A DNA stretch of 40,391 nt from an uncultured Mycoplasmatota bacterium (GTDB lineage Bacteria; Bacillota_I; Bacilli_A; RF39; UBA660): positions 1-40,391 of the forward strand of contig URXR01000002.1 of assembly GCA_900551925.1 (NCBI GenBank), in the 5' to 3' direction. How positions within the stretch are numbered: position 1 is the stretch's first letter; each line of letters begins with the position of its first letter. The notes under the pieces were generated by a model. The model had not been told where the DNA came from. It was given only the letters and a program-made list of their open reading frames with translations, and made no database searches. Positions 707 through 40,391 of this stretch are shown here, in pieces. The position numbers and the translations under genes were made by a program.

Positions 707-783
707 GGGCTCGTAGCTCAGTTGGTTAGAGCACTACTCTGATAAGGTAGGGGTCGATGGTTCAAGTCCATCCGGGCCCACCA
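707..783 (+). tRNA. tRNA-Ile (anticodon GAU), CCA encoded
   Basis: Hand-folded cloverleaf: acceptor GGGCTCG/CGGGCCC, D arm GCTC-AGTTGGTTA-GAGC, anticodon stem CTACT/GGTAG with loop CTGATAA, T arm GATGG-TTCAAGT-CCATC, 3' ACCA. Confidence 0.9.
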
Positions 784-805
784 TTTATAATTTTTATTAT
801 TAAAT

Positions 806-882
806 GCCTCAATAGCTCAGTTGGTTAGAGCACTTGACTGTTAATCAAGGGGTCCTAGGTTCGAGTCCTAGTTGGGGCGCCA
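806..882 (+). tRNA. tRNA-Asn (anticodon GUU), CCA encoded
   Basis: Acceptor GCCTCAA/TTGGGGC, anticodon stem CTTGA/TCAAG with loop CTGTTAA, T arm CTAGG-TTCGAGT-CCTAG, 3' GCCA. Confidence 0.9.
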
Positions 883-890
883 TTTTTAAT

Positions 891-967
891 GGCCTGTTGG
901 TGAAGCGGTTGAACACACTGCCCTTTCACGGCAGCATTCACGGGTTCAAATCCCGTACAGGTCACCA
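891..967 (+). tRNA. tRNA-Glu (anticodon UUC), CCA encoded
   Basis: Acceptor GGCCTGT/ACAGGTC, anticodon stem CTGCC/GGCAG with loop CTTTCAC, T arm ACGGG-TTCAAAT-CCCGT. It closely resembles Bacillus tRNA-Glu. Confidence 0.9.
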
Positions 968-2414: not shown

Positions 2415-3054
2415 ATAAGAATAATTAAGTAAAAATATTGAAATCAAACTAACAACTATGTATAATTATGATATAAAAAACTATAAGGAGTGAAGTAATA
2501 TGCAATTAAAAAATGTATATAAAAGCTCATCAAAAAATATCACTTCCCAAACAAAAAACTATAAACAAAAAATAATAAGGATATCGCTTTATATTATTGT
2601 ACTAGTAATTATAGCAATTTTAATATCGTTGCAAACAAATACAACTCTAGCAACAGACCTAAGTACAACAATAAAGCACGAAGAAATAACAACAAATAAT
2701 AAATCAAAAATAAACTTTTCAAATGATGATAATTATCTATATTTTAATACAGAACTTTTAAAGCCTACAAGTAATGAAACATTATACACAACAGCTACCA
2801 TAAATATGAGTAAAATTTGGTCAGAAGCCAGAAATAAAGAAATAACAGTAATATTAGAAAAAAGCACAAACAATCAAACTTATACAAGAGTAACAGCAGA
2901 AGAGCTATCTCAAAATAATACTATAACATTAATGGAAGATGAAGAACAAACAATAGCTAAGATGTATTATAGAGTATCAATAGAATTAGACAATGAAAAA
3001 GTAAAAGTGAGTGAAAGAAATATAGATCTAGATTTAAATGTAGAAACAGATATA

Positions 3055-4165
3055 AGATATAATTTTGAATTTGAAGAAAAACAACAAGAATTTGTAACTC
3101 CAGTAACTGGAGAATATAGAATAGAACTATGGGGAGCAGCAGGAAATTACTTTCCAAATAACATGAAAGAAGAAGTAGGAAAAGGTGCCTACACAGCAGG
3201 AACAATAGAATTAGAAGAAGGACAAGAATTATATATTTATACCGGAAAGAATTCTACAGATGAAGGAAATTTCTATACAGCCTCATTTAATGCTGGAAGT
3301 ACAGCGAAAGGAAAAGATAGGACAGATGAATATGGACACAACTCATCATCTGGCGGAGGAGCAACCGATGTAAGATTAGTAAGTGGAAATTGGAATAACA
3401 CAGCCTCTTTAAGATCAAGAATCATGGTAGCAGCAGGAGGCGGAGGAACTCACTATTATTTATCAACAGATGACAGAGTTATAGTAAAAGGTGAAGGCGG
3501 AGCCGCTGGAGGATTAATAGGATATCGAGGTTATCAAATGAGTGTTAAATATCCTTATAGCTTTAGCTGGACTTTTACCGAATATGATAGCAGTGTGCAT
3601 ACAGTTGCCACTTTAAATACACCATATGCCTATACCGGTGGTGGTTCTCAAAAAATAGGAGGTTCTACTAACACTTGTAAAATTGCCTCTTCTTGTGCAG
3701 AAAACGCTATGGGGCAAGCTGGATCATTAGGAATTGGAGGATCTGGTGCTCAATTAGTTGGAGGAGCTGGAGGAGGCGGAGGCTACTACGGAGGTGGTGG
3801 CGGAGGCCAATCATATGCTGATAATAGACCCGATAGTGGACTATGCCACTCCTCAGGAGCAGGAGGTTCATCATACATATCAGGACATACCGGAAGTATA
3901 GCCATAACTTCAGCAACAAATGAAAATCCTAAAGCAGGCTGTACGGAAACTGGAACAACTCCAGAAAGATATGTAGGAACAACTAATAATACTTGTTCTG
4001 TACATTATTCAGGGTTAACATTTACAGATACAGTAATGATAGATGGAGAAGGTTATAGCTGGACTAATAGAAGAGGAAGTAAACAAGCAATGCCAAGCTA
4101 TAATGAAGAAGAAATAGAAACAGGAAATTCCGGCAGTGGAGCAGCCAGAATAACAGCTTTAACCC
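3055..4165 (+). other. region encoding the glycine-rich domain (bacterial 'glycine-rich protein' family related to the ALK/LTK receptor GRD)
   Basis: FEFEEKQQEFVTPVTGEYRIELWGAAG, GGGATDVRLVSGNW...RSRIMVAAGGGG, GGAGGGGGYYGGGGGG, GAGGSSYISGHTG, GNSGSGAARITAL. The call rests on remembered family motifs. Confidence 0.65.
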
Positions 4166-4398
4166 TAGGGGCCGAAAGTAACCTATCAAAAACAAGTTCA
4201 ATAGTAATAACAAGTAAATATGTAGATGAAGATGGGATAGAAATAGGAGAAAGAGAACAAATATTAAAAAATGAAGGAGATAGTTATACAACAAATCCCA
4301 AAGACATAGAAGGATATATTTTAAAAGCAACCCCTTCAAATGCCAGTGGAACAGTAGGGGATGCAGACATAACAGTAACATATGTATATCAAAAATTA

Positions 4399-5177
4399 TA
4401 TACAGTCAGATATCAAAGTGATAATTATGGTAAAATAACAGGGAAAGAAGCTGAAGAGGTAATAGATAATAATAATCCAACCGGAACGACAGAAAGTTCA
4501 AATACAGGTTATCATTTAACATATTGGACAGCCAATAAAGATTTAACTTTAGAAGACGGAACTAAAAAAACATCAGGAACAAGTTTAACCATGAATGAAA
4601 TAAAAACAGTAGTAGTAACTGAAGATATAACTTTCACAGCCCATCATGAAATAAATAGATATAATATAATATATAAAAGTGATGAACACGGAACAATAAC
4701 AGGAATAACAAGCGAAACAGTAAACCACAATAATAGTCCAACTGGAACGACAGAAAGTTCTAACACAGGTTACCACTTAATCTATTGGACAGCAAATAAA
4801 GATATAACCTTAGAAGATGGAACAAAAAAACATCAGGAACAGGTTTAACTATGAATGAAATAAAAACAGTAGTAATAACCGAAGATCTAACTTTCACCGC
4901 TCATCATGAAATAAATAAGTATAACATAACTTATAAAAGCGATGAAAATGGAACAATAACTGGAAAAACTGAAGAAACAATATCATATGAAAATAATCCA
5001 ACCGGAACAGAAGAAGTACCAAATCCAGGATATTGTGAAGCTAAAGGTTGGGTAGCAGATAAAAAAGTAGAATTAAAAGATGGAAACACTGTAGAGGCCG
5101 GAAATATAATGACCTTTGAACAAATGCAAAATGTAATGGTAAAAGAAGACATCACCTTTACAGTATTACATGATCGC
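4399..5177 (+). repeat. three tandem ~261-nt (87-codon) coding repeats: 4399-4659, 4660-4919, 4920-5177
   Basis: Repeats 1 and 2 are very similar at the DNA level. Repeat 2 is 1 nt shorter, which is the frameshift. Repeat 3 is more diverged. The pattern Y.I.Y.SD..G.ITG...E.V....PTGT...P..GY....W is InlB B-repeat-like. Confidence 0.85.
4824..4830 (+). repeat. A7 homopolymer at the frame break; reads A-AAA-AAA in the upstream frame
   Basis: The sequence is gga aca aaa aaa cat. A8 (aca aaa aaa aca tca) would give TKKTSGTGLTMNEIK, matching repeat 1. Confidence 0.9.
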
Positions 5178-5849
5178 TGCTATGGAGAATTAACAATATT
5201 AAAAATAGATGAAGAGACAAAAAAAGTAATACAAGGAGTAGAATTTAGACTTTTGAATAAAGATGGAAGCGAAGCCAAAGATATTTATAATAATCCAATT
5301 GCTAATGTAACAACTAATGAACAAGGAATAGCTAGATTTATAAATGTACCATATGGTGACTATATACTAGAAGAAGTAAAAACAAATAGTTATTATAAAA
5401 TATTAGAAGAGCCAATAGAAATCACCTTTGGAGAAAATGAAGATGCAATAAATATAGAAAAGGTAAATAAAGAAGCAACCAGTTTTGTAATAAGTAATAT
5501 CCCGATAGACTTTAAAATGCTAAAAAAAGACATCGATACAGACAAAAATATAAAAGGAGCAGAATTTGAAATAATAGATGAAAATGGCAAAGTATTTAAA
5601 ACAATAACCATAAAAAATGAAATAGAAACAATTTCGATTCCAACTGGAAGTTATACATTAGTAGAAACAGTATCACCAGATGGTTATAAAACCTCAAACA
5701 TAGAAATTAATTTTAAAGTGCTAGAAGATGGGAATATCGAAATAACCGAAGAAGAAAGTAATTTATATGAATTAGAACAATCAGAAGAAGAAACAGACAA
5801 TGATAAAGATAGTCTAACAATATATAATGAAAAAACCGAAATATTAAAA

Positions 5850-5864
5850 ATACCGAATACTGGA
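5850..5864 (+). other. LPXTG-type sortase sorting motif (IPNTG)
   Basis: IPNTGS is followed by IKIITIVGGIVLILGGSYIIY and a basic tail RKYKD at the C-terminus. Confidence 0.8.
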
Positions 5865-5976
5865 AGCGAAATAAAGATAATAACAATAGTAGGAGGAATA
5901 GTCTTAATATTAGGAGGAAGCTATATAATTTACAGAAAATATAAAGACAGTAATTTTACTATTTAACCATTGTTTA

Positions 5977-12404: not shown

Positions 12405-13544
12405 TTGGAAAGTTTAAATAAAAAAGACGTAATAACTATGAAATTACTTCATTATTTTATAACCGAAGAAAATTATAGTCCTGTTGTTTTACACGGAGCC
12501 AAAAATGAAATATGGCTTGAAAATATGGATAATGATTATAAAATAGTTAGAATTGTCTCAAATTATATTCATAATAATGAACAATTAGATTTTGATATCT
12601 TTAAAACAAAAAAAATAGTAAAAAGTATTAAGAAAAAAACTTTAAACGTTAATATGCCAGTTCTAAGTATCTTTATTGATCTTGGTGATAATGTAGAGCT
12701 ACGTGAAGAAAAAGATATGGATCTAGTTTACCTAGAAAATGAAAAAGATATTAAAAAATATGATTTTCTTTACAAACACTTTCCTGATTTAGATAAAAAA
12801 TTGACTTTTAAAGAAAAGGGGATGAATTTATTTTTGAAAATAACCGAAGATATAAATAAAAAAAATGTCGAAGAAGCTAGAAGAGTAGAAGAAATTTTTA
12901 AACCTAAATTTCCAATTGTAACTTATGTTCTAATAGGAATAAATGTTGCTATATTCTTAATAGGTATGTTATTTGGACTTAATAATGTCTTTATTAATCT
13001 ATTTGCTAACTATGGACCATATGTAGTAGATGGAGAGTATTATAGACTTTTAACTGCAACCTTTATTCATGCCAATATTTTTCATATTGCTTTTAATATG
13101 TATGCTTTATATTTATTAGGAAGTCAAGCGGAAAGTTTTTTTGGCAAATGGAAGTTTTTAATAATTTATTTATTAAGTGCTATTTCAGGTAGTTTACTAT
13201 CAATCCTTTTAAATCAAGGAGCAGTATCAGTAGGAGCCAGTGGGGCAGTATTTGGAATTATGGGAGCTTTATTATACTTTGGTTATAATTATAGAGTTTA
13301 TCTAGGTAATACCCTAGTAAAAGCAATAATACCAGTCATACTAATTAACTTCGCCTTTGGTTTTATATTAACTGGAGTAGATAACTATGCTCATATCGGA
13401 GGATTAGTCGGAGGTATAACAACTGCTATGGCAGTAGGACTAACTACTAGATCAGGAAAAACAGATAAATTAAATGGTATTATTATTACAATTCTATTAT
13501 TTGCATTCTTAATATTCATGAACTTTTTCTATCAAAACATATAA
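12405..13544 (+). CDS. rhomboid family intramembrane serine protease with ~170-aa N-terminal cytoplasmic extension
   Basis: FIHANIFHIAFNMYALY, GASGAVFGIMGA (catalytic Ser) and AHIGGLVGG (catalytic His) within a 6-7 TM core. The TTG start is preceded by GTAGGTGG. Confidence 0.85.
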   Translation: MESLNKKDVITMKLLHYFITEENYSPVVLHGAKNEIWLENMDNDYKIVRIVSNYIHNNEQLDFDIFKTKKIVKSIKKKTLNVNMPVLSIFIDLGDNVELREEKDMDLVYLENEKDIKKYDFLYKHFPDLDKKLTFKEKGMNLFLKITEDINKKNVEEARRVEEIFKPKFPIVTYVLIGINVAIFLIGMLFGLNNVFINLFANYGPYVVDGEYYRLLTATFIHANIFHIAFNMYALYLLGSQAESFFGKWKFLIIYLLSAISGSLLSILLNQGAVSVGASGAVFGIMGALLYFGYNYRVYLGNTLVKAIIPVILINFAFGFILTGVDNYAHIGGLVGGITTAMAVGLTTRSGKTDKLNGIIITILLFAFLIFMNFFYQNI

Positions 13545-13549
13545 AAATT

Positions 13550-13579
13550 ACAAGTATCAGAAATGGTACTTGTTTTTTT
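13550..13579 (+). terminator. intrinsic terminator of the rhomboid gene
   Basis: ACAAGTA / TACTTGT stem followed by T7. Confidence 0.75.
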
Positions 13580-13598
13580 ATCTAATAAATTATATAAT
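13570..13598 (+). promoter_or_regulatory. sigma-A-like promoter (TTGTTT-17 nt-TATAAT) driving the orphaned 12-codon leader
   Basis: Consensus -10 at 13593-13598. A paralogous arrangement (TTGCAA-17-TATAAT) precedes the second leader at 40241-40269. Confidence 0.55.
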
Positions 13599-13633
13599 TA
13601 ATACATAATAAGACTAAGAAAGTAGTGAGAAAT

Positions 13634-13671
13634 ATGAAAAAACAAAAAGAACAAACTACAAAGGGGAGTTA
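13634..13671 (+). pseudogene. 5' fragment (ATG + 12 codons, MKKQKEQTTKGS) of the glycine-rich protein gene, cut off by the IS
   Basis: The reading frame runs into the IS terminal repeat and stops inside it. It joins in frame to 15081 onward if 13672..15080 is removed. Confidence 0.6.
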
Positions 13672-13707
13672 TGTCAATATTTGGTACAACATTTTGAGGG
13701 GGTTTTA
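13672..13707. repeat. IS terminal inverted repeat (orfB-proximal end)
   Basis: TGTCAATATTTGGTACAACATTTTGAGGGGGTTTTA pairs with the reverse complement of 15041-15080. Confidence 0.7.
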
Positions 13708-14573
13708 GAAGAAATTTGAGATTTTTCAAACTCAATTGGAGACATTCCCCCAATAGAAGAATGAATTCTCTTAGGGTTATAAAACCCCTCAATATAATCA
13801 AAAATAGTTTTGTAAGCATCTTCATAGTGATATAAAGTAGTATTATATATACATTCTTTTTTTAAAGTAGCATGGAAAGATTCTTGAGCAGCATTTTGAT
13901 CGCATGAATGATTAAGTTCTGTATAACTATAAAGACAATGATGATTACTTAAAAGCTTTCTATAAGATTTAGATCTAAATTGAGCACCTTTATCAGAATG
14001 AATGATTAAACCTGGTAAAGGTTTTCTTTTTTTAAAAGCAATGTTAAAAGCAATCTCGATGTTAACAGTTTTTTGATTTCTAGATAAAAACCAACCAACA
14101 ACTTTTTTACTAAAATAATCAATAAAAGAGATTAAATATAAAGTACCATCATAAACAGTCTTAATATAAGTAATGTCAGTAGTCCAAACTTGATTTATAT
14201 GCCATATATTTAAATTGATAATTAAGTTTTTAATTAAGGCTTTTTCTTCTAAAGTCATAGGAGATTTTCTATGTGGGAAGTTTTTAGTGTGGATACTTTT
14301 AATACCAAGGAATTTCATTTCATTAGCAATTTTCTTTTGAGAGAAAGAAAAGCCTTGATTTTTAAGTTCAATAGTGATTCTAGGGGCACCATATATACCA
14401 TTAGAATTCCAATAAATATCAAGAATTTTAATTAATAATTTAGCTCTTTTTTCTAGATTAATATGATAAAAATGTTTCCAGTTGTAGAAAGAATTTCTAG
14501 AAATGCCTAGGACTTTACATTGAGCAGCGATAGAATGAAATTTAGAGTTTTGTAAAATAGCAAGATAAATCAT
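13674..14573 (-). CDS. IS3-family transposase OrfB (DDE/RNase H-like integrase core), probably made as an OrfAB fusion by -1 frameshifting
   Basis: WTTDITYI (D), IHSDKGAQFRS (D) and NAAQESFHATLKKE (E), followed by YNPKRIHSSIGGMSP. The stop codon lies inside the terminal repeat. Confidence 0.9.
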   Translation of the reverse strand: MIYLAILQNSKFHSIAAQCKVLGISRNSFYNWKHFYHINLEKRAKLLIKILDIYWNSNGIYGAPRITIELKNQGFSFSQKKIANEMKFLGIKSIHTKNFPHRKSPMTLEEKALIKNLIINLNIWHINQVWTTDITYIKTVYDGTLYLISFIDYFSKKVVGWFLSRNQKTVNIEIAFNIAFKKRKPLPGLIIHSDKGAQFRSKSYRKLLSNHHCLYSYTELNHSCDQNAAQESFHATLKKECIYNTTLYHYEDAYKTIFDYIEGFYNPKRIHSSIGGMSPIEFEKSQISSKTPSKCCTKY

Positions 14574-14851
14574 TTTCCGTTTTTGATGTAAAATCCTAAA
14601 GTTTTTTTTAAAATATCATTGGTGTTCTCGAGTTCAGCAATTCTCTTTTTAAGCTTTTGAATGTGTTGTTCTGGAGAGATGTAGTCAGAGTCAAAAACTT
14701 TATTATTTTTATTATAAGCAGTAATCCACTTTTCAAGAGTTTTTAAAGGGACATGTAAATCATTAGCAGTTTTCAAAGTAGAATGTTTAGAAATAATAAC
14801 AAGTTCAGCAGCCATTTTTTTGAATTCATTGCTATAATAACTATTAGCCAA
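14570..14851 (-). CDS. IS3-family transposase OrfA (helix-turn-helix)
   Basis: 93 aa with TTG start 7 nt after GGAGGTGA. MAAELVIISKHSTLKTANDLHVPLKTLEKWI HTH and a leucine-zipper-like C-terminus. Confidence 0.85.
   Translation of the reverse strand: MANSYYSNEFKKMAAELVIISKHSTLKTANDLHVPLKTLEKWITAYNKNNKVFDSDYISPEQHIQKLKKRIAELENTNDILKKTLGFYIKNGK
14602..14609 (-). promoter_or_regulatory. programmed -1 ribosomal frameshift site (A-AAA-AAA within an A8 run)
   Basis: In the orfA frame the sequence reads TTA AAA AAA ACT. A -1 slip continues as NFRILHQKRKMIYLAIL, which is the orfB frame. This is the canonical IS3-family arrangement. Confidence 0.75.
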
Positions 14852-14914
14852 AAAATCACCTCCTTTAAAATAAAGATAAAGATAAAAAAGAATAAAATCA
14901 AGGAAAAAGGTATT

Positions 14915-14936
14915 TTACTTTCTTTAAAGAAAGTAA
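14915..14936. repeat. perfect 22-nt palindrome in the IS leader (TTACTTTCTTT|AAAGAAAGTAA)
   Basis: Read directly from the sequence. It lies between the terminal repeat and the orfA start. Confidence 0.9.
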
Positions 14937-15040
14937 AGGAAATTATAGACATGAAGATGTAGAAATGGTATTATAGATATATAGAAAAGTAGAAGAAAGG
15001 AAGACAGTTGTATGAAGAGAAATAAAGAAAAAGTAACTAA

Positions 15041-15080
15041 TGAAACCCCCTCTGAAAACTGTCCCAAAAATATACTAACA
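15041..15080. repeat. IS terminal inverted repeat (orfA-proximal end)
   Basis: The reverse complement is TGTTAGTATATTTTTGGGACAGTTTTCAGAGGGGGTTTCA. It shares TGT.A.TAT.TT..GG.ACA..TTTT..GAGGGGGTTT with the other end. Confidence 0.7.
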
Positions 15081-15096
15081 TCCAAGAAAAATAGAC

Positions 15097-17283
15097 TTGG
15101 GGGGGGGGTACTTTTACAAACAATTAAATAAAGATGTAAAAGAAATAAACAAAGTATTTCTATCTTTATTTAGCATGGGAATAATACTTGTTGCCATATA
15201 TGTAGGAGTGAGCATAACAAATAATTCATATGCTTTATTTACAGATACCCTAAAGGGAGAAAAAACTATCGAAGTAACAGTTCATAATGAATGGAATTTT
15301 GGATTTACTGGTGATGAACAAACTTTTATTGTACCCAAAAACGGCTATTATTATATAGAACTCGGAGGGGCTCAAGGAGGTTCCAACTATAGTGAAATTG
15401 AGTATGGAGGAAAAGGAACTATAACAAGTGGTTATATTTATCTTAATAAAGGAGAAACTTTGTACATTTATGTTGGAGAAAAAGGGAAACACGGTAGTAA
15501 TGTAGATCCCGCTTATAATGGTGGAGGCGGCCAAGGTGATGGGGTACTTTCCACTAATTTATATGCTACTGGAGGAGGAGCGACCGATATAAGGCTAACT
15601 AATGGAGATTGGGATGACATCTCCTCACTCATATCCAGAATAATGGTCGCTGGAGCTGGAAGTGGCTCATATGGTTTTTATACAAAAGGTGTTCCTGGAG
15701 GAGCATTATATGGTAATAATGGGTTAAGAACTTTAACGACTTATGAGACTTATGGGCACGGAGCAACTCAAACCAGTGGAGGTTCCAAAGGAGAAGTTAT
15801 TAATGCTGGATTGGATTGGTATGGTTCCACTGATGGAGGTTTTGGCTATGGAGGTGAAGGGCCTCTTAAATACGGAGGAGGAGGTGGCGGAGGCTACTAC
15901 GGTGGCGGAGGAGCCGGAGTTTCCTCAGCCAATGGTTCAAGTGGTGGCAGTGGTTCCTCATATATCTCAGGCTATGCCGGAGTAAATAGTGTTGAAGAAA
16001 ATACGACAATAACTCATACCAACCAAACTCTTCATTATAGTGGTAAATACTTTATCGGAGGAAAAATGCTTGAAGGACAAAATGAAGGCCATGGTTATGC
16101 TAAAATAGGATTTATAGGAGAAAAACCAGAAAAGAAAACTACTAAATTAAACAATGTCAGATATATAAAAAATTGTATAAGCCATAATAGTGTATATGAT
16201 TATAATAACTGGCTAGAAATAGAAGCCATAAAAGATGGAATAAATATAGCCAAAGGAAAGACAGTAACAGGAACAACTTCAGAACACACTTCATATCCTT
16301 ACTCTAGAATAACAGATGGTGATATAGATTATGAAAATTTTGCATCACCTTCAAGCTCTGCCTTAAATCAGTGTGTCACAGTAGACCTAGAACAAGAATA
16401 CAATTTAGATGAAATAGCAGTATGGAATTTTTTCGGTGATCAAAGAACTTATTATAACAATACTACCTCAGTATCAAGTGATAATCAAAACTTTACTGAA
16501 ATAATAACCGGAAATGCTATGCTAGAAACTAGCAATGGTCATAGAATAAATGCTTATACAGATACTTATAATGGTTACGTTTCAGATAATTTACTATTGT
16601 GGTACGATGGTTATGCTAACACAGGAACAAAAAAAGATTATACTATAGCAACTTGGAAAGATTTAAGTGATAATGATAATGATGGAACTTTAACCGAAGG
16701 AACTTGGGAATATGATAGCTTATTATTGGACGGAGATAACAATACAGTAGAAACTAATCTTGATGCTAAAACAACTTTGCCAACCGATGAAGATAGAACT
16801 CTAGAAATAACTTTCAAAATAAATAGTGTTCCGTATGATGAAAACACAAATGGCTATACCGGAGTTTTCTTTGGAGCAATTAATTATGGAGGAATGGGAA
16901 TAACTTGGATAAGAAATGTTTCCGCTAATTCTTATTCTATTAATGGTGTTACTAGAGCTAATGAAATAAGACAAGTAAAAATATTACACCAGACTTATCC
17001 CACTAAAATTATAACTTTAACCTATGTAAATAACCCCTCAAACAATAAAATACTATTTTATTTAAACGGAGAAAAAATAGGAGAAGATTTAAGCACAACA
17101 GGAAGTTATCCTAATGAAATAGGAAATATTGGTATAAATAAAGCTCAAGTACCTGGAGGAATAGAAAGTGGTAATTATGCTAACATTAATGTTTATAGTG
17201 CTAGAATCTATAATAAAGCTCTAACAGAAACAGAAATAAAAAATAACTTCTCATATGATAAAGAAAAATTTTATTTCAACTAA
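15097..17283 (+). CDS. membrane-anchored glycine-rich-domain (ALK/LTK GRD-like) protein with discoidin (F5/8 type C)-like and LamG/ConA-like C-terminal domains; native 5' end displaced by the IS
   Basis: TM helix VFLSLFSMGIILVAIYVGV. GRD motifs FGFTGDEQTFIVPKNGYYYIELGGAQGG, GGGATDIRLTNGDW...SRIMVAGAGSG, GGGGGGGYYGGGGAG, GGSGSSYISGYAG, GHGYAKIGFIG. ITDGD...QCVTVDLEQEYNLDEIAVWNF is discoidin-like. LLLWYDGY...ARIYNKALTETEIKNNF is LamG-like. The frame is closed 7 codons upstream and there is no SD before TTG 15097. Confidence 0.75.
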   Translation: MGGGYFYKQLNKDVKEINKVFLSLFSMGIILVAIYVGVSITNNSYALFTDTLKGEKTIEVTVHNEWNFGFTGDEQTFIVPKNGYYYIELGGAQGGSNYSEIEYGGKGTITSGYIYLNKGETLYIYVGEKGKHGSNVDPAYNGGGGQGDGVLSTNLYATGGGATDIRLTNGDWDDISSLISRIMVAGAGSGSYGFYTKGVPGGALYGNNGLRTLTTYETYGHGATQTSGGSKGEVINAGLDWYGSTDGGFGYGGEGPLKYGGGGGGGYYGGGGAGVSSANGSSGGSGSSYISGYAGVNSVEENTTITHTNQTLHYSGKYFIGGKMLEGQNEGHGYAKIGFIGEKPEKKTTKLNNVRYIKNCISHNSVYDYNNWLEIEAIKDGINIAKGKTVTGTTSEHTSYPYSRITDGDIDYENFASPSSSALNQCVTVDLEQEYNLDEIAVWNFFGDQRTYYNNTTSVSSDNQNFTEIITGNAMLETSNGHRINAYTDTYNGYVSDNLLLWYDGYANTGTKKDYTIATWKDLSDNDNDGTLTEGTWEYDSLLLDGDNNTVETNLDAKTTLPTDEDRTLEITFKINSVPYDENTNGYTGVFFGAINYGGMGITWIRNVSANSYSINGVTRANEIRQVKILHQTYPTKIITLTYVNNPSNNKILFYLNGEKIGEDLSTTGSYPNEIGNIGINKAQVPGGIESGNYANINVYSARIYNKALTETEIKNNFSYDKEKFYFN
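15099..15108 (+). repeat. G10 homopolymer within codons 1-4 of the remaining ORF (TTG GGG GGG GGG)
   Basis: Counted directly: two G at 15099-15100 plus eight at 15101-15108. Surrounding DNA is very AT-rich. Confidence 0.95.
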
Positions 17284-29908: not shown

Positions 29909-29983
29909 TGGAGGGCCTAGCCGGATTTGAACCGGCGAATCAAGGTTTTGCAGACCCATGCCTTACCACTTGGCTATAGACCC
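29909..29983 (-). tRNA. tRNA-Cys (anticodon GCA), CCA encoded
   Basis: The reverse complement is GGGTCTATAGCCAAGTGGTAAGGCATGGGTCTGCAAAACCTTGATTCGCCGGTTCAAATCCGGCTAGGCCCTCCA. Acceptor GGGTCTA/TAGGCCC, loop CTGCAAA, T arm GCCGG-TTCAAAT-CCGGC. It resembles Bacillus tRNA-Cys. Confidence 0.85.
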
Positions 29984-37238: not shown

Positions 37239-39149
37239 ATGTTTGTAAAAAAAAATAATGAGAGAATTAAATTAGTTTTTATAATAGCAATATTATTATT
37301 TTTAATTATCTTTTTTAAAATAGTTTATGTTCAAACTGTCTCCTATGATAAACTTAGTACTTTATCAGATGATTTATGGAGTAGAGAGCTTCCAATAAGT
37401 GCTTCTCGTGGTAAAATTCTAGATAGAAATGGAGTAGTTTTGGCAGATAATATCACTATTACTAGTCTTGTCATTATTCCCAATCAAGTTAAAGAACCAG
37501 AAAAAGTAGCTAAAGTATTAAGTAATATTTTAAATACTGACTATGATGATATGTATGCTCATGTTACTAAAAATACTTCTATTGAAAGAGTTCATCCCGA
37601 AGGAAGAAATCTATCCTATGAAATAGCAGATGAAATAAACAGTTATAAATTTGATGGAGTATATGTAGTAAAAGAAGCCAAAAGATATTATCCAAATGGC
37701 AATATGCTATCTCATGTTTTAGGTTATACGGGTATAGACAATCAAGGACTTTCCGGAATAGAGCTTTTATATGATGATTATCTAACTGGAGAAGATGGTG
37801 CTATTAAGTACTATAGTGATGCGAAAGGCAACAAATTAGATATGGCTGAAGTTTATACTGAACCTGAAGCTGGACTAGATGTTATGCTTACTATTGATTA
37901 TGATATTCAAGTCTCTATCGAAAGAGAATTAGATAATATTGTTTCCAGTTTTTCTCCAGACCATGCTCTAGCAGTAGCAATGAACCCTAATACTGGCGAA
38001 ATACTAGCTATGAGTTCTAGACCAAATTTTGATCCCAACAATTATCAAAAATATGATGAAGAGACTCTAAATAGAAATCTTCCCATTTGGATGACCTACG
38101 AACCTGGTAGTACTTTTAAAATAATTACTACTGCTGCTGCAGTAGAAGAAGGAGTTGTAAATTTAGAAAAAGATGAATTCTATGATAGTGGCAGTGTCAC
38201 TGTAAGTGGTGTTAAGCTTAGATGTTGGAAAGCTGGAGGTCACGGTCATCAAACAATGCTCCAAGTTTTTGAAAATTCTTGTAACCCAGGTTTTGTCAAA
38301 ATGGGATTTTCTCTAGGCAAAGAAAAACTCTTTGATTACATAAATTTATTTGGCTTTGGAGAAAAAACAGGTATAGATTTAAATGGAGAAGGCGAAGGAA
38401 TTATTTTTGATGTAGAAGATGTTAAAGACCTAGAACTTGCAACGACTGCCTTTGGTCAAGGAGTAAGTGTAACTCCAATCCAACAAGTAACAGCAGTATC
38501 CTCAATAGTTAATGGCGGTTATTTATATAAACCCTATATCATGAAGAGCATTTTAGATAGTGAAACCAATAATGTCTTTACTAGTGGCGAAAAAGAACTA
38601 GTTAGAAAAACAATTAGTAAAAATACTTCAAATATATTAAAAATGGCCCTTGAAAGTGTTGTAGCAAATGGTGGAGGAAAAGTAACATATATCGATGGTT
38701 ACCGAGTTGGAGGAAAAACTGGAACAGCTCAAAAAGTAGAAAATGGTAGGTACTTAGAAAATAACTATATAATGAGTTTTATGGCAGTTCTCCCTAGTAA
38801 TGATCCAGAAATAGTTTTATATCTAGCCATCGATAATCCTAAAAAGACAGCGCTTTTATCAAGTTATACTACAACTCCTTTTGTTAGAAAAATTCTTCTT
38901 GATATTATTAACATCATGGATATCAAAAAGCAAGATAATCAAAAAGAAAAAGATTATGAATGGATGGATAAAAAATATTATGAAGTCCCAAATGTTATTG
39001 GTATGACTAAAGAAGAAGCTAAAAAATATTTAACAGGTTTTGAAATAGAATTTGTTGGAGATGGCGACATAGTAGTAGAACAAACCCCTGAGGCTAACAC
39101 TAGATATTATGAAACTGGTACTATCAAACTTCTTATGGGTAATAAATAA
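37239..39149 (+). CDS. class B penicillin-binding protein (PBP2B/SpoVD-type transpeptidase) with one C-terminal PASTA domain
   Basis: N-terminal TM helix, dimerisation domain, and GSTFK (SxxK), SCN (SxN) and KTGTA motifs. The C-terminal YEVPNVIGMTKEEAKKYL...IVVEQTP is PASTA. It lies upstream of mraY. Confidence 0.9.
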   Translation: MFVKKNNERIKLVFIIAILLFLIIFFKIVYVQTVSYDKLSTLSDDLWSRELPISASRGKILDRNGVVLADNITITSLVIIPNQVKEPEKVAKVLSNILNTDYDDMYAHVTKNTSIERVHPEGRNLSYEIADEINSYKFDGVYVVKEAKRYYPNGNMLSHVLGYTGIDNQGLSGIELLYDDYLTGEDGAIKYYSDAKGNKLDMAEVYTEPEAGLDVMLTIDYDIQVSIERELDNIVSSFSPDHALAVAMNPNTGEILAMSSRPNFDPNNYQKYDEETLNRNLPIWMTYEPGSTFKIITTAAAVEEGVVNLEKDEFYDSGSVTVSGVKLRCWKAGGHGHQTMLQVFENSCNPGFVKMGFSLGKEKLFDYINLFGFGEKTGIDLNGEGEGIIFDVEDVKDLELATTAFGQGVSVTPIQQVTAVSSIVNGGYLYKPYIMKSILDSETNNVFTSGEKELVRKTISKNTSNILKMALESVVANGGGKVTYIDGYRVGGKTGTAQKVENGRYLENNYIMSFMAVLPSNDPEIVLYLAIDNPKKTALLSSYTTTPFVRKILLDIINIMDIKKQDNQKEKDYEWMDKKYYEVPNVIGMTKEEAKKYLTGFEIEFVGDGDIVVEQTPEANTRYYETGTIKLLMGNK

Positions 39150-40269: not shown

Positions 40270-40306
40270 TAAAATGTATAAAAACTAAAGAAAGTAGTGA
40301 GAAAAT

Positions 40307-40344
40307 ATGAAAGAAAATAAAAAGCAAACTACCAAGGGGAGTTA
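40307..40344 (+). pseudogene. second 12-codon leader fragment (MKENKKQTTKGS), paralogous to 13634..13671 and again cut by the IS
   Basis: The upstream AGAAAGTAGTGAGAAA element, length and terminal AAGGGGAGTTA are the same as in the first leader. There are 6 nt differences, in 4 of the 12 codons. Confidence 0.6.
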
Positions 40345-40391
40345 TGTCAATATTTGGTACAACATTTTGAGGGGGTTTTAGAAGAAATTTG
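40345..40391 (-). mobile_element. first 47 bp (orfB-proximal end) of a second copy of the same IS3-family element, truncated by the window edge
   Basis: 47/47 identical to 13672..13718 (TGTCAATATTTGGTACAACATTTTGAGGGGGTTTTAGAAGAAATTTG). Confidence 0.85.

What the first reader, a model, noticed from the sequence alone, without database searches (positions are those of the whole stretch)
13570..15131. An IS3-family element sits inside codon 13 of a glycine-rich surface-protein gene, and removing exactly the IS rejoins promoter, leader and gene body in frame
Seen in sequence: the 728-codon ORF at 15097..17283 has no credible start. Its frame is closed by TAA at 15076-15078, and the first possible start is TTG 15097 with no Shine-Dalgarno sequence. 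About 1.4 kb upstream, immediately after the rhomboid terminator, there is a TTGTTT-17-TATAAT promoter and ATG 13634. Twelve codons (MKKQKEQTTKGS) follow and run straight into the IS terminal repeat (TG at 13672), stopping 11 codons later. Deleting 13672..15080 (1409 nt, TG...CA ends) joins TA|T. The result reads MKKQKEQTTKGSY-PRKIDLGGGYFYKQLNKDVKEINKVFLSLFSMGIILVAIYVGV..., continuous with the 15097 frame. That gives a basic N-terminus plus a TM helix, as expected for an exported protein. A 3-bp target duplication would keep the frame; a 4-bp one would not. Inference: the gene is insertionally silenced or 5'-truncated. Reversible IS insertion and excision is an established on/off switch for surface structures, for example IS492 in Pseudoalteromonas eps and IS256 in staphylococcal ica.
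Basis: partly seen in the sequence, partly recalled or inferred. Interest (0 to 1): 0.72.

Follow-up and report, generated by a model that had tools for sequence, protein, structure and literature searches.

The report
Insertion element targeting poly-G gene leaders
A mobile DNA element does split the start of a surface-protein gene, but the gene's real on/off switch is a run of ten G's just downstream, and this element inserts next to that G-run in many related genes of uncultured human-gut bacteria.

Summary
The IS3-family element is real, but its ends are 13664 and 15083 (1,420 bp, AAG duplicated), not 13672 and 15080. It lies after codon 10 of the leader, not in codon 13.

An IS-less allele of the same gene (L059) shows the empty site ACTACAAAG|AAAAATAG. 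True excision gives MKKQKEQTTKKNRLGGGVLLQTIK*, which is out of frame.

The overlooked feature is the G10 tract at 15099-15108. Terminator hairpin, promoter, SD, ATG, about 10 Lys-rich codons and a poly-G tract form a conserved 5' cassette. A large paralogous family of glycine-rich (ALK/LTK-GRD) secreted proteins in uncultured gut Bacilli shares it. G9 alleles are ON (P0141/L081: MKKQKEQTTKKNRLGGGYLYKQL...). G10 and G11 alleles are OFF. This fits a slipped-strand contingency switch.

The IS specialises on this cassette. Eleven of 12 distinct left flanks are such leaders. All 13 distinct right flanks lie 15-19 nt upstream of the G run, always in one orientation. Its outward-facing end carries a promoter, SD and ATG in the leader's frame.

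A reversible IS excision switch is not supported. The contig join across the multicopy IS may be chimeric.

The parts
13550..13580 (+). Terminator hairpin plus T-run after the rhomboid gene. It is also the first element of the conserved 5' cassette.
   Evidence: One search found a 10-bp stem. Near-identical hairpins precede the paralog leaders in L059 and L010.
13570..13598 (+). Native promoter-like site TTGTTT-17-TATAAT.
   Evidence: The TATAAT and a TTGnnn -35 are conserved in IS-less cassettes L005, L008, L009, L010, L059 and L071.
13616..13633 (+). Conserved SD region AAGAAAGTAGTGAGAAAT upstream of the leader ATG.
   Evidence: Conserved as AAAGAAAGTAGTG(GT/AG)AAA in all cassettes.
13634..13663 (+). 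Leader codons 1-10, MKKQKEQTTK. Reading continues into the IS and stops at TAG 13706.
   Evidence: The same 10 residues open the intact ON protein P0141.
13661..13663 (.). Left copy of the 3-bp target duplication AAG.
   Evidence: The empty site in L059 has a single AAG.
13664..15083 (-). IS3-family insertion sequence, 1,420 bp. Its ends are defined by junctions, not by TG/CA.
   Evidence: Copies in 10 or more other contigs are 96-99.9% identical over 1-1420, each with different flanks.
13664..13704 (+). Inverted repeat at the orfB side, GGGAGTTATGTC...TTTTGAGGGGGTTT.
   Evidence: About 30 of 42 positions match the other end.
13674..14573 (-). orfB, a DDE (rve) transposase domain of 299 aa.
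14570..14851 (-). orfA, an HTH protein of 93 aa.
14603..14609 (-). Slippery heptamer A AAA AAA. A -1 slip fuses orfA to orfB (OrfAB).
   Evidence: The fusion translates without a stop into the orfB frame.
14946..14974 (+). Outward-facing promoter-like site inside the IS, TAGACA-17-TG-TATTAT.
   Evidence: It is the best sigma70-type match in 13450-15300, at 10 of 12 positions with an extended -10.
14996..15083 (+). IS-borne SD (AAAGGAAG) and ATG at 15012. Twenty-four codons (MKRNKEKVTNETPSENCPKNILTS) stay open to the IS tip, in the native leader frame. With G10 the ORF stops at 15129-15131.
   Evidence: The same start heads called genes in L061/P0155 and, in a diverged copy, P0091/L011. Eight short OFF ORFs also begin here.
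15043..15083 (+). Inverted repeat at the orfA side, AAACCCCCTCTGAAAA...ACTAACATCC.
15084..15098 (+). Right copy of AAG plus the remaining leader codons, AAG AAA AAT AGA CTT (KKNRL).
   Evidence: Identical in IS-less L005, L008-L010 and L059.
15099..15108 (+). Poly-G tract (G10), the presumed slipped-strand phase switch. G9 or G12 reads through; G10 or G11 is out of frame.
   Evidence: The tract is G9 in L081 (ON) and L004, G10 in L059, and G11 in L060 and L066 for the same or near-identical genes.
15109..17283 (+). Body of the secreted protein: YFYKQLNKDVKEINKVF, a TM helix, a SYALFTD signal region, an ALK/LTK-type glycine-rich domain and a weak discoidin-like match. Homologues also carry LamG (PF13385).
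40288..40336 (+). Second leader cassette after mraY: promoter, SD and ATG at 40307, MKENKKQTTK.
   Evidence: IS-less alleles of this locus (L071, L077) continue into another GRD paralog with G10.
40337..40391 (-). Left end of a second copy of the same IS. The contig ends inside it.
   Evidence: The same junction occurs in L072, L073 and L075.

Best explanation
A 1,420-bp insertion sequence of the IS3 family occupies 13664-15083. It has OrfA and OrfB with a -1 frameshift site, imperfect inverted repeats of about 41 bp, and a 3-bp AAG duplication. It sits after codon 10 of a short Lys-rich leader.

That leader is part of a conserved 5' cassette: terminator hairpin, sigma70-type promoter, SD, ATG, about 10-14 codons, then a poly-G tract encoding Gly3. 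The cassette heads a large family of paralogous secreted glycine-rich proteins in uncultured human-gut Bacilli.

The poly-G tract is the switch. Its length sets the reading frame: G9 or G12 is ON, G10 or G11 is OFF. In more distant paralogs a G tract sits in the promoter spacer and would set the -35/-10 spacing. Length changes by slipped-strand mispairing are inferred, not shown.

The IS specialises on this cassette. It lands 15-19 nt upstream of the G run in one fixed orientation. The transposase runs antisense to the gene, and the orfA-side end abuts the G run.

In this window the native promoter and first 10 codons are cut off and run into the IS. The gene body is left behind an IS-borne outward promoter, SD and ATG (14946-15014) that reads through the IS tip in the native leader frame. 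With G10 the gene is out of frame with both start codons, so it is OFF whether or not the IS is there.

Shown: the anatomy, the ends, the empty site, tract-length polymorphism with ON and OFF alleles, and recurrent site- and orientation-specific insertion. Inferred: actual switching, the mechanism of target choice, and activity of the IS-borne promoter and start.
For: IS identity: NF033516, 236 bits; OrfAB fusion at A AAA AAA; IR alignment.

Ends and duplication: searches give 12 distinct left and 13 distinct right flanks around a constant GGGAGTTATG...ACTAACATCC. One search gives the empty site in L059 for the same gene (98.9% identical). One search covers frames.

Cassette and family:
- IS-less leaders in L005, L008, L009, L010, L053, L059, L071 and L077.
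- 2,747 homologues. Many start MKK...GGGY and many are called from 'MGGGY'.
- At least 6 paralogs in one MAG.

Poly-G:
- It is the only G/C run of 7 or more in the window.
- G9 is ON in L081/P0141. G10 is OFF in L005, L059 and L009. G11 occurs in L060 and L066. G12 is ON in L017.
- Tracts sit in the promoter spacer in L036, L038, L046 and L044.

Targeting: 11 of 12 left flanks are leaders, cut 13-36 nt after the ATG (27-36 nt in 10 of the 11). All 13 right flanks lie 15-19 nt before a G6-G11 run, in one orientation. Both IS copies in this contig are in leaders.

Outward signals: best promoter match in the region; frame. Called genes starting at the IS ATG: P0155/L061 and P0091/L011.
Against: - No read-level data, so switching within a population is not shown. 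Every assembly of this particular gene is OFF (8 of 8 members of the P0001 cluster start at an internal Met).
- The IS tips are GG...CC, not the TG...CA usual for IS3.
- Left and right flank pairings in short metagenome contigs are often inconsistent. The L007, L066 and L067 contigs share one left flank but have three different right junctions. The AAG duplication therefore rests on this contig plus L059.
- IS-less L059 places this gene after PolC, not after rhomboid. L062 has rhomboid plus IS followed by a different paralog. The window join across the IS may be chimeric or rearranged.
- No expression data exist for the IS-borne promoter and ATG. Eight of the 9 candidate proteins starting with its peptide are short OFF ORFs.
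- The host is known only as 'uncultured Bacilli bacterium'.
Confidence: 0.8

Rival explanations
1. First reader's model. The IS ends are TG 13672 and CA 15080. It sits in codon 13, and its exact excision restores an in-frame gene. IS insertion and excision is then the reversible on/off switch, as with IS492/eps, IS256/ica and IS1301/siaA.
For: Deleting 13672-15080 is in frame with G10. IS-less alleles of the rhomboid, GRD-A and mraY loci exist in other samples (L053, L059, L071).
Against: Junction-defined ends are 13664 and 15083. The real empty site (L059) gives an out-of-frame G10 allele. Intact homologues read ...TTKKNRLGGGY, not ...TTKGSYPRKIDLGGGY. A frame match has a 1 in 3 chance. IS3-family transposition is copy-out/paste-in (my knowledge). 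IS-less alleles differ from IS-bearing ones at other leader positions too, so they are not simple excision products.
Confidence: 0.04
2. The IS reached many leaders mainly by homologous recombination or gene conversion between paralogous cassettes, carrying adjacent flank with it. Sequence-targeted transposition would then play little part.
For: Seven IS-bearing 'QTT' leaders share the SD variant GTAGTGAGAAATATG. IS-less leaders have GTAGTGGTAAAAATG. The same ...AAG|IS|AAG... junction recurs at several loci. Cassette homology flanks the IS on both sides.
Against: There are at least 7 different left and at least 8 different right junction positions within about 12 nt. The IS also sits in a different leader type (L065) and in KEIFA-class leaders with the other SD variant (L003, L061, L064). 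These require independent transposition events.
Confidence: 0.2
3. The window contig is a chimeric join through a multicopy repeat. The rhomboid-side leader half and the GRD-side half belong to two different IS copies, so this promoter and leader never belonged to this gene.
For: - L059 links this gene, with identical downstream synteny, to PolC plus two small genes through an IS-less leader with a different 5' half.
- L062 links rhomboid plus IS to another paralog.
- Most assemblies break at this IS.
- The contig itself ends in copy 2.
Against: The AAG/AAG duplication fits a single insertion, but AAG is also the commonest junction. A real IS- or cassette-mediated rearrangement would look the same.
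Confidence: 0.35
4. G10 alleles are not OFF. Translation would start at the TTG of cTTGGGG (15097), or a +1 ribosomal or transcriptional slip on the G run would restore the frame. The G tract would then tune expression rather than switch it.
For: In G10 alleles the TTG is always in frame with the body. G10 is the majority length in assemblies. A +1 shift on GGG-G allows perfect tRNA re-pairing (inference).
Against: No SD precedes the TTG. ON alleles with the full Lys-rich leader exist at G9 or G12 and supply the expected signal-peptide n-region. Lengths G9 to G12 all occur.
Confidence: 0.12
5. The leader and G run are part of a longer mobile element (about 13580-15108) with subterminal repeats.
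For: This was my first reading. Copy 2 and L001/L002 share the leader and the AAGAAAAATAGACTT-G10 segment on either side of the IS.
Against: The same leader plus G run occurs uninterrupted at several loci (L005, L008-L010, L059, L071, L081). Leader flanks are only about 85% identical, against 96-100% for the IS.
Confidence: 0.01

Closest known systems
IS3 family insertion sequences (for example IS911, IS150, IS2, IS3)
   Same: OrfA (HTH) and OrfB (DDE/rve) overlap, with an A AAA AAA -1 frameshift site giving OrfAB. It has imperfect terminal inverted repeats, a 3-bp duplication and a length of 1.4 kb. It matches NF033516 above the cutoff.
   Different: OrfB is under 40% identical to the closest plasmid-borne IS3-family relatives found. 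The tips are GG...CC, not TG...CA. A 232-bp spacer between the tip and orfA carries an outward promoter, SD and ATG. Insertion is strongly specific for region and orientation.
IS1397 / ISKpn1, IS3-family elements that insert specifically into REP/BIME palindromes (my knowledge)
   Same: An IS3-family member that lands again and again at one position of a short repeated genomic sequence. Empty copies of the target are also present.
   Different: The target here is the coding leader of a gene family, 15-19 nt upstream of a poly-G tract. It is not an extragenic palindrome, and orientation relative to the gene is fixed.
Poly-G/C contingency loci of Campylobacter jejuni, Helicobacter pylori, Neisseria and Haemophilus (slipped-strand phase variation)
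   Same: A long homopolymer lies in the 5' coding region of surface-protein genes. It is a multigene family. Alleles differ by plus or minus 1-3 G and toggle the frame.
   Different: The host is an uncultured low-GC gut member of the Bacilli. The protein family is ALK/LTK-type glycine-rich domain plus discoidin/LamG. The whole promoter, leader and G-tract cassette is conserved across paralogs. Switching itself was not observed.
Mycoplasma hyorhinis vlp and similar genes with homopolymer tracts in the promoter spacer (my knowledge)
   Same: Distant paralogs (L036, L038, L046, L044) place the G8-G10 tract between the -35 and -10 hexamers.
   Different: The tract is poly-G, not poly-A. The window gene itself uses the coding-leader configuration.
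IS-mediated phase variation: IS492 in Pseudoalteromonas eps, IS256 in staphylococcal ica, IS1301 in meningococcal siaA
   Same: An IS interrupts a gene for a surface component. IS-less alleles exist in the population.
   Different: Nothing indicates precise excision. The exact empty site is still out of frame. The IS family and transposition chemistry differ. A separate reversible switch, the G tract, is built into the target.
SipW-dependent (TasA/TapA-type) signal peptides of Bacillus
   Same: The layout is a Lys-rich n-region, a hydrophobic helix, then ...SYALFTD. There is a weak hit to the TapA N-terminus (TIGR04087, E = 0.026).
   Different: The score is far below the cutoff. No SipW gene was identified in the window.

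Membership tests
IS3 family | DDE (rve) transposase matching the family model | tested here: met
   NF033516 scores 236 bits for orfB against a cutoff of 160. Pfam gives rve, rve_2, rve_3 and HTH_21.
IS3 family | Two overlapping ORFs joined by a programmed -1 frameshift at an A-rich slippery site | tested here: met
   orfA and orfB overlap by 4 nt. A AAA AAA lies at 14609-14603 (minus strand). A -1 slip gives an uninterrupted OrfAB. Frameshifting itself was not measured.
IS3 family | Imperfect terminal inverted repeats of 20-40 bp | tested here: met
   The repeats span about 41 bp with about 30 of 42 positions matching, starting from the junction-defined tips.
IS3 family | Tips 5'-TG...CA-3' (typical, not universal) | tested here: not met
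The constant ends across 12 left and 13 right flanks are GGGAGTTATG... and ...ACTAACATCC.
IS3 family | Target duplication of 3-4 (5) bp | tested here: met
   AAG lies on both sides here, with a single AAG in the empty site L059. Other contigs are uninformative because flank pairings are unreliable.
IS3 family | Copy-out/paste-in through a circular intermediate | not testable with these tools
   This needs experiments or read-level detection of IR-IR junctions.
Slipped-strand contingency (phase-variable) locus | Long simple repeat in the 5' coding region or promoter of a surface-protein gene | tested here: met
   G10 lies at 15099-15108, 15 nt after the insertion point and inside the leader ORF. 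G8-G12 tracts occur at the same place, or in the promoter spacer, in paralogs.
Slipped-strand contingency (phase-variable) locus | Near-identical alleles differ in repeat number, producing ON and OFF frames | tested here: met
   G9 is ON in L081/P0141, against P0036 and L005 with G10 OFF on the same leader. This gene has G10 in the window and L059, and G11 in L060 and L066.
Slipped-strand contingency (phase-variable) locus | High-frequency reversible switching within a clonal population | not testable with these tools
   No reads or cultures were available.
IS-mediated reversible switch (IS492 / IS256 / IS1301 type) | Exact removal of the IS restores an open gene | tested here: not met
   Removing 13664-15083 plus one AAG gives MKKQKEQTTKKNRLGGGVLLQTIK* at G10. 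The natural empty site L059 is likewise OFF.
IS-mediated reversible switch (IS492 / IS256 / IS1301 type) | Observed precise excision events | not testable with these tools
   This needs reads or PCR from one culture.
Site-specific IS (IS1397-like behaviour) | Recurrent insertion at one position and orientation of a repeated sequence, with empty targets present | tested here: met
   Eleven of 12 left flanks are leaders. All 13 right flanks lie 15-19 nt from the G run, in a single orientation. Empty cassettes occur at three loci.
SipW/TasA-type signal peptide | Match to the curated N-terminal models | tested here: inconclusive
   Only TIGR04087 (TapA) matched, at E = 0.026 and 14 bits against a cutoff of 80. 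The SYALFTD motif fits from memory only.

The most novel reading that the evidence does not exclude
This IS lineage is a dedicated parasite of poly-G contingency-gene leaders. It recognises the G run or its surroundings and inserts a fixed distance upstream in one orientation. It also carries a replacement promoter, SD and start codon whose 24-codon ORF exits the IS tip in the leader's own frame. The interrupted surface-protein gene would then stay expressible and still be phase-variable through the same G tract, so the insertion costs the host little.

Hints:
- Nine of 13 IS-tip-to-G-run distances are multiples of 3 (binomial P about 0.009; the junctions are not independent).
- Genes are called from the IS-borne ATG in P0155/L061 and, in a diverged copy, P0091/L011. 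P0152/L082 starts at a different ATG inside the inverted repeat of another related IS.
- Two related IS types hit the same cassette (L060/L082, and L074).
Probability: 0.25. Interest if true: 0.75.

Novelty: new variant of a known kind. Interest (0 to 1): 0.55.

Why it matters
1. It corrects the finding. The gene's state is set by a G10 tract, not by a reversible IS.
2. It points to a large poly-G contingency gene family with a shared promoter-leader cassette in abundant but uncultured human-gut Bacilli. Four literature searches found no description of such switches in this group. They would bear on immune evasion and phage or host interaction.
3. An IS3-family element with tight site and orientation preference for a coding leader is unusual. 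If target choice depends on the G run, it is a tractable case of DDE-transposase targeting.
4. There are practical consequences. Gene callers start these genes at the TTG of cTTGGGG or at internal Met codons. Assemblies break or mis-join at the IS.

Tried and rejected
- **Leader and G run as part of a longer IS.** The copy at 40288-40391 suggested this. IS-less cassettes rejected it.
- **The IS end captured a native leader.** I aligned 14930-15083 locally against five native cassettes. Fifteen to 158 of 500 dinucleotide shuffles reached the observed score, so the similarity is not significant.
- **L011 as a solo, domesticated IS end.** This is not established. The 3' end of another IS3-like orfB lies just upstream, and the contig starts there.
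- **DNA-pattern scan of genome contigs** for AAGAAAAATAGACTTGGGGGG gave 0 hits. In the metagenome scan, L006 is an unrelated GC-rich chance hit.
- **Search for proteins starting with the IS-borne peptide** returned only 8 short OFF ORFs.
- **Flank pairings in short contigs** could not be used to measure the duplication, because they are inconsistent.
- **Rfam** found no known RNA family in the leader.
- **Four literature searches** found no description of this IS, this cassette, or bacterial PF12810 proteins under poly-G control.
- **Taxonomy** could not be taken beyond 'uncultured Bacilli bacterium'.

Full report
**1. What the sequence shows**

The window is 27.8% GC. A complete IS3-type element lies on the minus strand between the rhomboid gene and the 728-codon ORF.
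- orfA is 14851..14570 (HTH_Tnp_1).
- orfB is 14573..13674 (rve, rve_2, rve_3, HTH_21). It matches NCBIfam NF033516 'IS3 family transposase' at 236 bits against a cutoff of 160.
- A slippery A AAA AAA at 14609-14603 lets a -1 shift fuse orfA to orfB without a stop.

- ATG 13634 follows a terminator hairpin (13550-13573) and TTGTTT-17-TATAAT.
- TAA 15076-78 closes the long ORF's frame, and the first start is TTG 15097 with no SD.
- Deleting 13672-15080 gives MKKQKEQTTKGSYPRKIDLGGGYFYKQ....

**2.

A self-BLAST found a second partial copy at the end of the window. It repeats the IS end and also, at about 85% identity, the promoter, SD, ATG and leader.

Look-ups of contigs encoding the same OrfB, OrfA, GreA and MraY, plus one metagenome pattern scan, gave many more copies. 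Across 12 distinct left flanks and 13 distinct right flanks the constant sequence is |GGGAGTTATGTC ... ACTAACATCC|. The IS is therefore 13664-15083, 1,420 bp.

The two tips are inverted repeats of each other (GGGAGTTA and GGATGTTA). The full repeat is about 41 bp, with a GAGGGGG box in both arms.

AAG flanks the element on both sides (13661-63 and 15084-86).

**3. The empty site**

L059 carries the same gene at 98.9% identity over 2.6 kb, with identical downstream synteny. Its leader has no IS:
...AAAGAAAGTAGTGGTAAAGATGAAGGAACAAACTACAAAGAAAAATAGACTT-G10-TACTTTTACAAAC....

It holds a single AAG. This confirms a 3-bp duplication and an insertion after the tenth codon.

Removing the IS and one AAG from the window gives MKKQKEQTTKKNRLGGGVLLQTIK*, which is out of frame.

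**4. The overlooked feature: the G10 run at 15099-15108**

It is the only G or C run of 7 or more in the contig.

IS-less leaders from several loci share one cassette: terminator hairpin, TTGnnn-17-TATAAT, AAAGAAAGTAGTGGTAAAAATG, 9-14 Lys-rich codons, AAGAAAAATAGACTT, then a G run. After the run comes TA(C/T)(C/T)TTTA(C/T)AAACAATTAAATAAAGAT..., encoding YFYKQLNKD(V/I)KEINKVF, a hydrophobic helix and SYALF(T/S)D. These leaders are L005, L008, L009, L010, L053, L059, L071, L077 and L081.

The protein has an ALK/LTK-type glycine-rich domain (PF12810, 1.5e-38) and a weak discoidin match. Homologues add LamG. It has 2,747 homologues at E <= 0.001. All are from metagenomes or MAGs, and none carries a name in its source.

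Their called N-termini fall into three classes.
- Full leaders such as MKKQKEQTTKKNRLGGGYLYKQL (P0141).
- 'MGGGY' or 'LGGGY', where the gene caller took the TTG of cTTGGGG.
- Internal Met starts.

L081, which encodes P0141, has G9 and is ON. The same leader with G10 (L005) stops after 20-21 codons.

Tract lengths observed elsewhere:
- This gene has G10 in the window and L059, and G11 in L060 and L066.
- In other MAGs the tract is G11-G12 at GRD paralog leaders, and G9 at the leader of a non-GRD gene in L037.
- In more distant paralogs a G8-G10 tract sits between the -35 and -10 hexamers instead (L036, L038, L046, L044).

One MAG has at least six paralogs. The hosts are 'uncultured Bacilli bacterium' MAGs from human gut samples.

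This is the signature of a slipped-strand contingency gene family. Switching within one population is inferred, not shown.

**5. The IS specialises on the cassette**

- Eleven of 12 distinct left flanks are leaders. Ten are cut 27-36 nt after their ATG; in L065, a different leader type, the cut is 13 nt after it. The exception is L070.
- All 13 distinct right flanks place the IS tip 15-19 nt upstream of a G6-G11 run.
- Every copy has the same orientation, with the orfA side next to the G run.
- Eight further junction peptides appear in short ORFs that begin inside the IS.
- Both copies in this contig are in leaders. The second follows mraY, where IS-less alleles (L071, L077) continue into another GRD paralog with G10.

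At least seven left and eight right junction positions within about 12 nt imply independent transposition events.

Some spread by recombination between cassettes is also likely. Seven IS-bearing 'QTT' leaders share an SD variant (GTAGTGAGAAATATG) not seen in IS-less leaders.

Two other related IS types hit the same cassette (L060/L082, and L074). One of them also inserts into the end of this IS (L063, L070).

How the target is chosen is unknown. The GAGGGGG box in both inverted repeats suggests the transposase may bind G runs. That is speculation.

**6. Consequence for the gene**

The native promoter and ten codons now read into the IS, antisense to orfB, and stop at 13706.

The IS end next to the gene carries three signals.
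- The best sigma70-type match in the region: TAGACA-17-TATTAT with an extended -10, at 14946-14974.
- An SD, AAAGGAAG.
- ATG 15012. Its ORF (MKRNKEKVTNETPSENCPKNILTS) stays open for exactly 24 codons to the IS tip and continues in the native leader frame as KKNRLGGG.

With G10 this ORF is OFF as well, stopping at 15129-15131. With G9 it would read into the whole protein.

Genes are called from this ATG in L061 (P0155). In a diverged copy the equivalent ATG starts a full 669-aa protein (P0091/L011). In a variant IS, a different ATG inside the repeat starts P0152/L082.

Nine of 13 tip-to-G-run distances are multiples of three (P about 0.009; not independent, and confounded with target preference).

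Whether the IS-borne signals work is untested. A test for sequence homology between the IS end and native leaders was negative.

**7. Caveats**

- The window is an entire contig that ends inside IS copy 2. Most assemblies break at this IS.
- Flank pairings across the IS disagree between assemblies.
  - L059 (IS-less) puts this gene after PolC.
  - L062 has rhomboid plus IS followed by another paralog.
  - L053 (IS-less) has rhomboid followed by a third 5' sequence.
- The rhomboid-side half-leader and this gene body may therefore not be contiguous in the organism, or the locus is rearranged between strains. This does not change what the element is or where it inserts. It does weaken the claim that this promoter once drove this gene.

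**8. Comparison with known systems, and novelty**

The element passes the IS3-family tests except for the usual TG...CA tips. OrfB is under 40% identical to plasmid-borne relatives.

In behaviour it is closest to the REP-specific IS3 members IS1397 and ISKpn1 (my knowledge), but its target is a coding leader.

The gene family behaves like the poly-G contingency loci of Campylobacter, Helicobacter and Neisseria. Its promoter-spacer variants resemble Mycoplasma vlp.

The IS492, IS256 and IS1301 analogy fails on the one point that could be tested: exact removal does not restore the frame.

Four literature searches found no description of this cassette or this IS.

**9. Verdict**

The locus is a new variant of known kinds: a site-specific IS3-family element living in the poly-G leaders of a phase-variable surface-protein family in uncultured gut Bacilli. 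Interest is moderate (0.55). It would be higher if the leader-replacing reading holds.

Noticed in passing
window 40288-40391: A second copy of the same IS sits in a homologous leader just after mraY, and the contig ends inside it. IS-less alleles of this locus (L071, L077) carry another GRD paralog behind a G10 tract.
   Followed up: yes
L036 198; L038 1926; L046 1898; L044 583: In distant paralogs from other gut Bacilli MAGs the G8-G10 tract lies between the -35 and -10 promoter hexamers, not in the coding leader. An example is TTGACA-ACATT-G10-TATAAT.
   Followed up: partly
L060 1-53; L082 1-66; L074 (end of locus); L063 and L070 (inside the IS right end): Two further related IS types use the same cassette. 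One ends ...GATAAACTCC|CAAAG at almost the same site in the same gene; a variant has a C9 run in its repeat. The other starts TGCATTGGTCAAG..TTTGAGGGGG. It sits between the -10 and SD at the mraY locus and also inside the right end of the IS studied here.
   Followed up: partly
L076, L078, L080 (mraY locus): In these alleles the cassette is cut right after the SD and the paralog is gone. A TPR-protein gene follows. The cassette loci appear to be deletion hot spots.
   Followed up: no
L071, L076, L079, upstream of mraY (window equivalent 37239-39149): The 636-aa PBP (PBP_dimer, Transpeptidase, PASTA) is split in some samples. In L071 a 581-aa large serine recombinase and a T4SS coupling-protein gene precede the 282-aa C-terminal part. 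This looks like an integrated element inside a SpoVD/PBP2B-like gene.
   Followed up: no
window 2500-4848 and 4851-5966: These two adjacent ORFs (GRD plus MucBP, then SpaA) appear to correspond to a single 1,155-aa gene in L052, which carries all three domains. The alignment was not checked. If so, the gene is split by a stop in this contig.
   Followed up: no
L053 6668-6864 (rhomboid locus, IS-less): This IS-less allele has an interrupted G tract (GGGGGGAGGTG). Its leader reads GAACATCCTCCAAG, where 'ACATCC' equals the IS right tip. It could be a footprint or a coincidence; this is unresolved.
   Followed up: partly
P0007, P0008, P0022, P0036, P0048 and others: Gene callers routinely start OFF alleles at the TTG of cTTGGGG ('MGGGY...') or at internal Met codons. 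Database N-termini for this family are therefore systematically wrong.
   Followed up: partly
window 707-964 and 29912-29983: There is a cluster of three tRNA genes and one further tRNA. No other Rfam family reached its threshold in the contig.
   Followed up: no
L002 1-75 (as stored); L037 1665: The same poly-G leader also heads a different gene type whose product begins LLNRK followed by a TM helix, with no GRD N-terminus. The cassette is therefore not restricted to GRD proteins.
   Followed up: no
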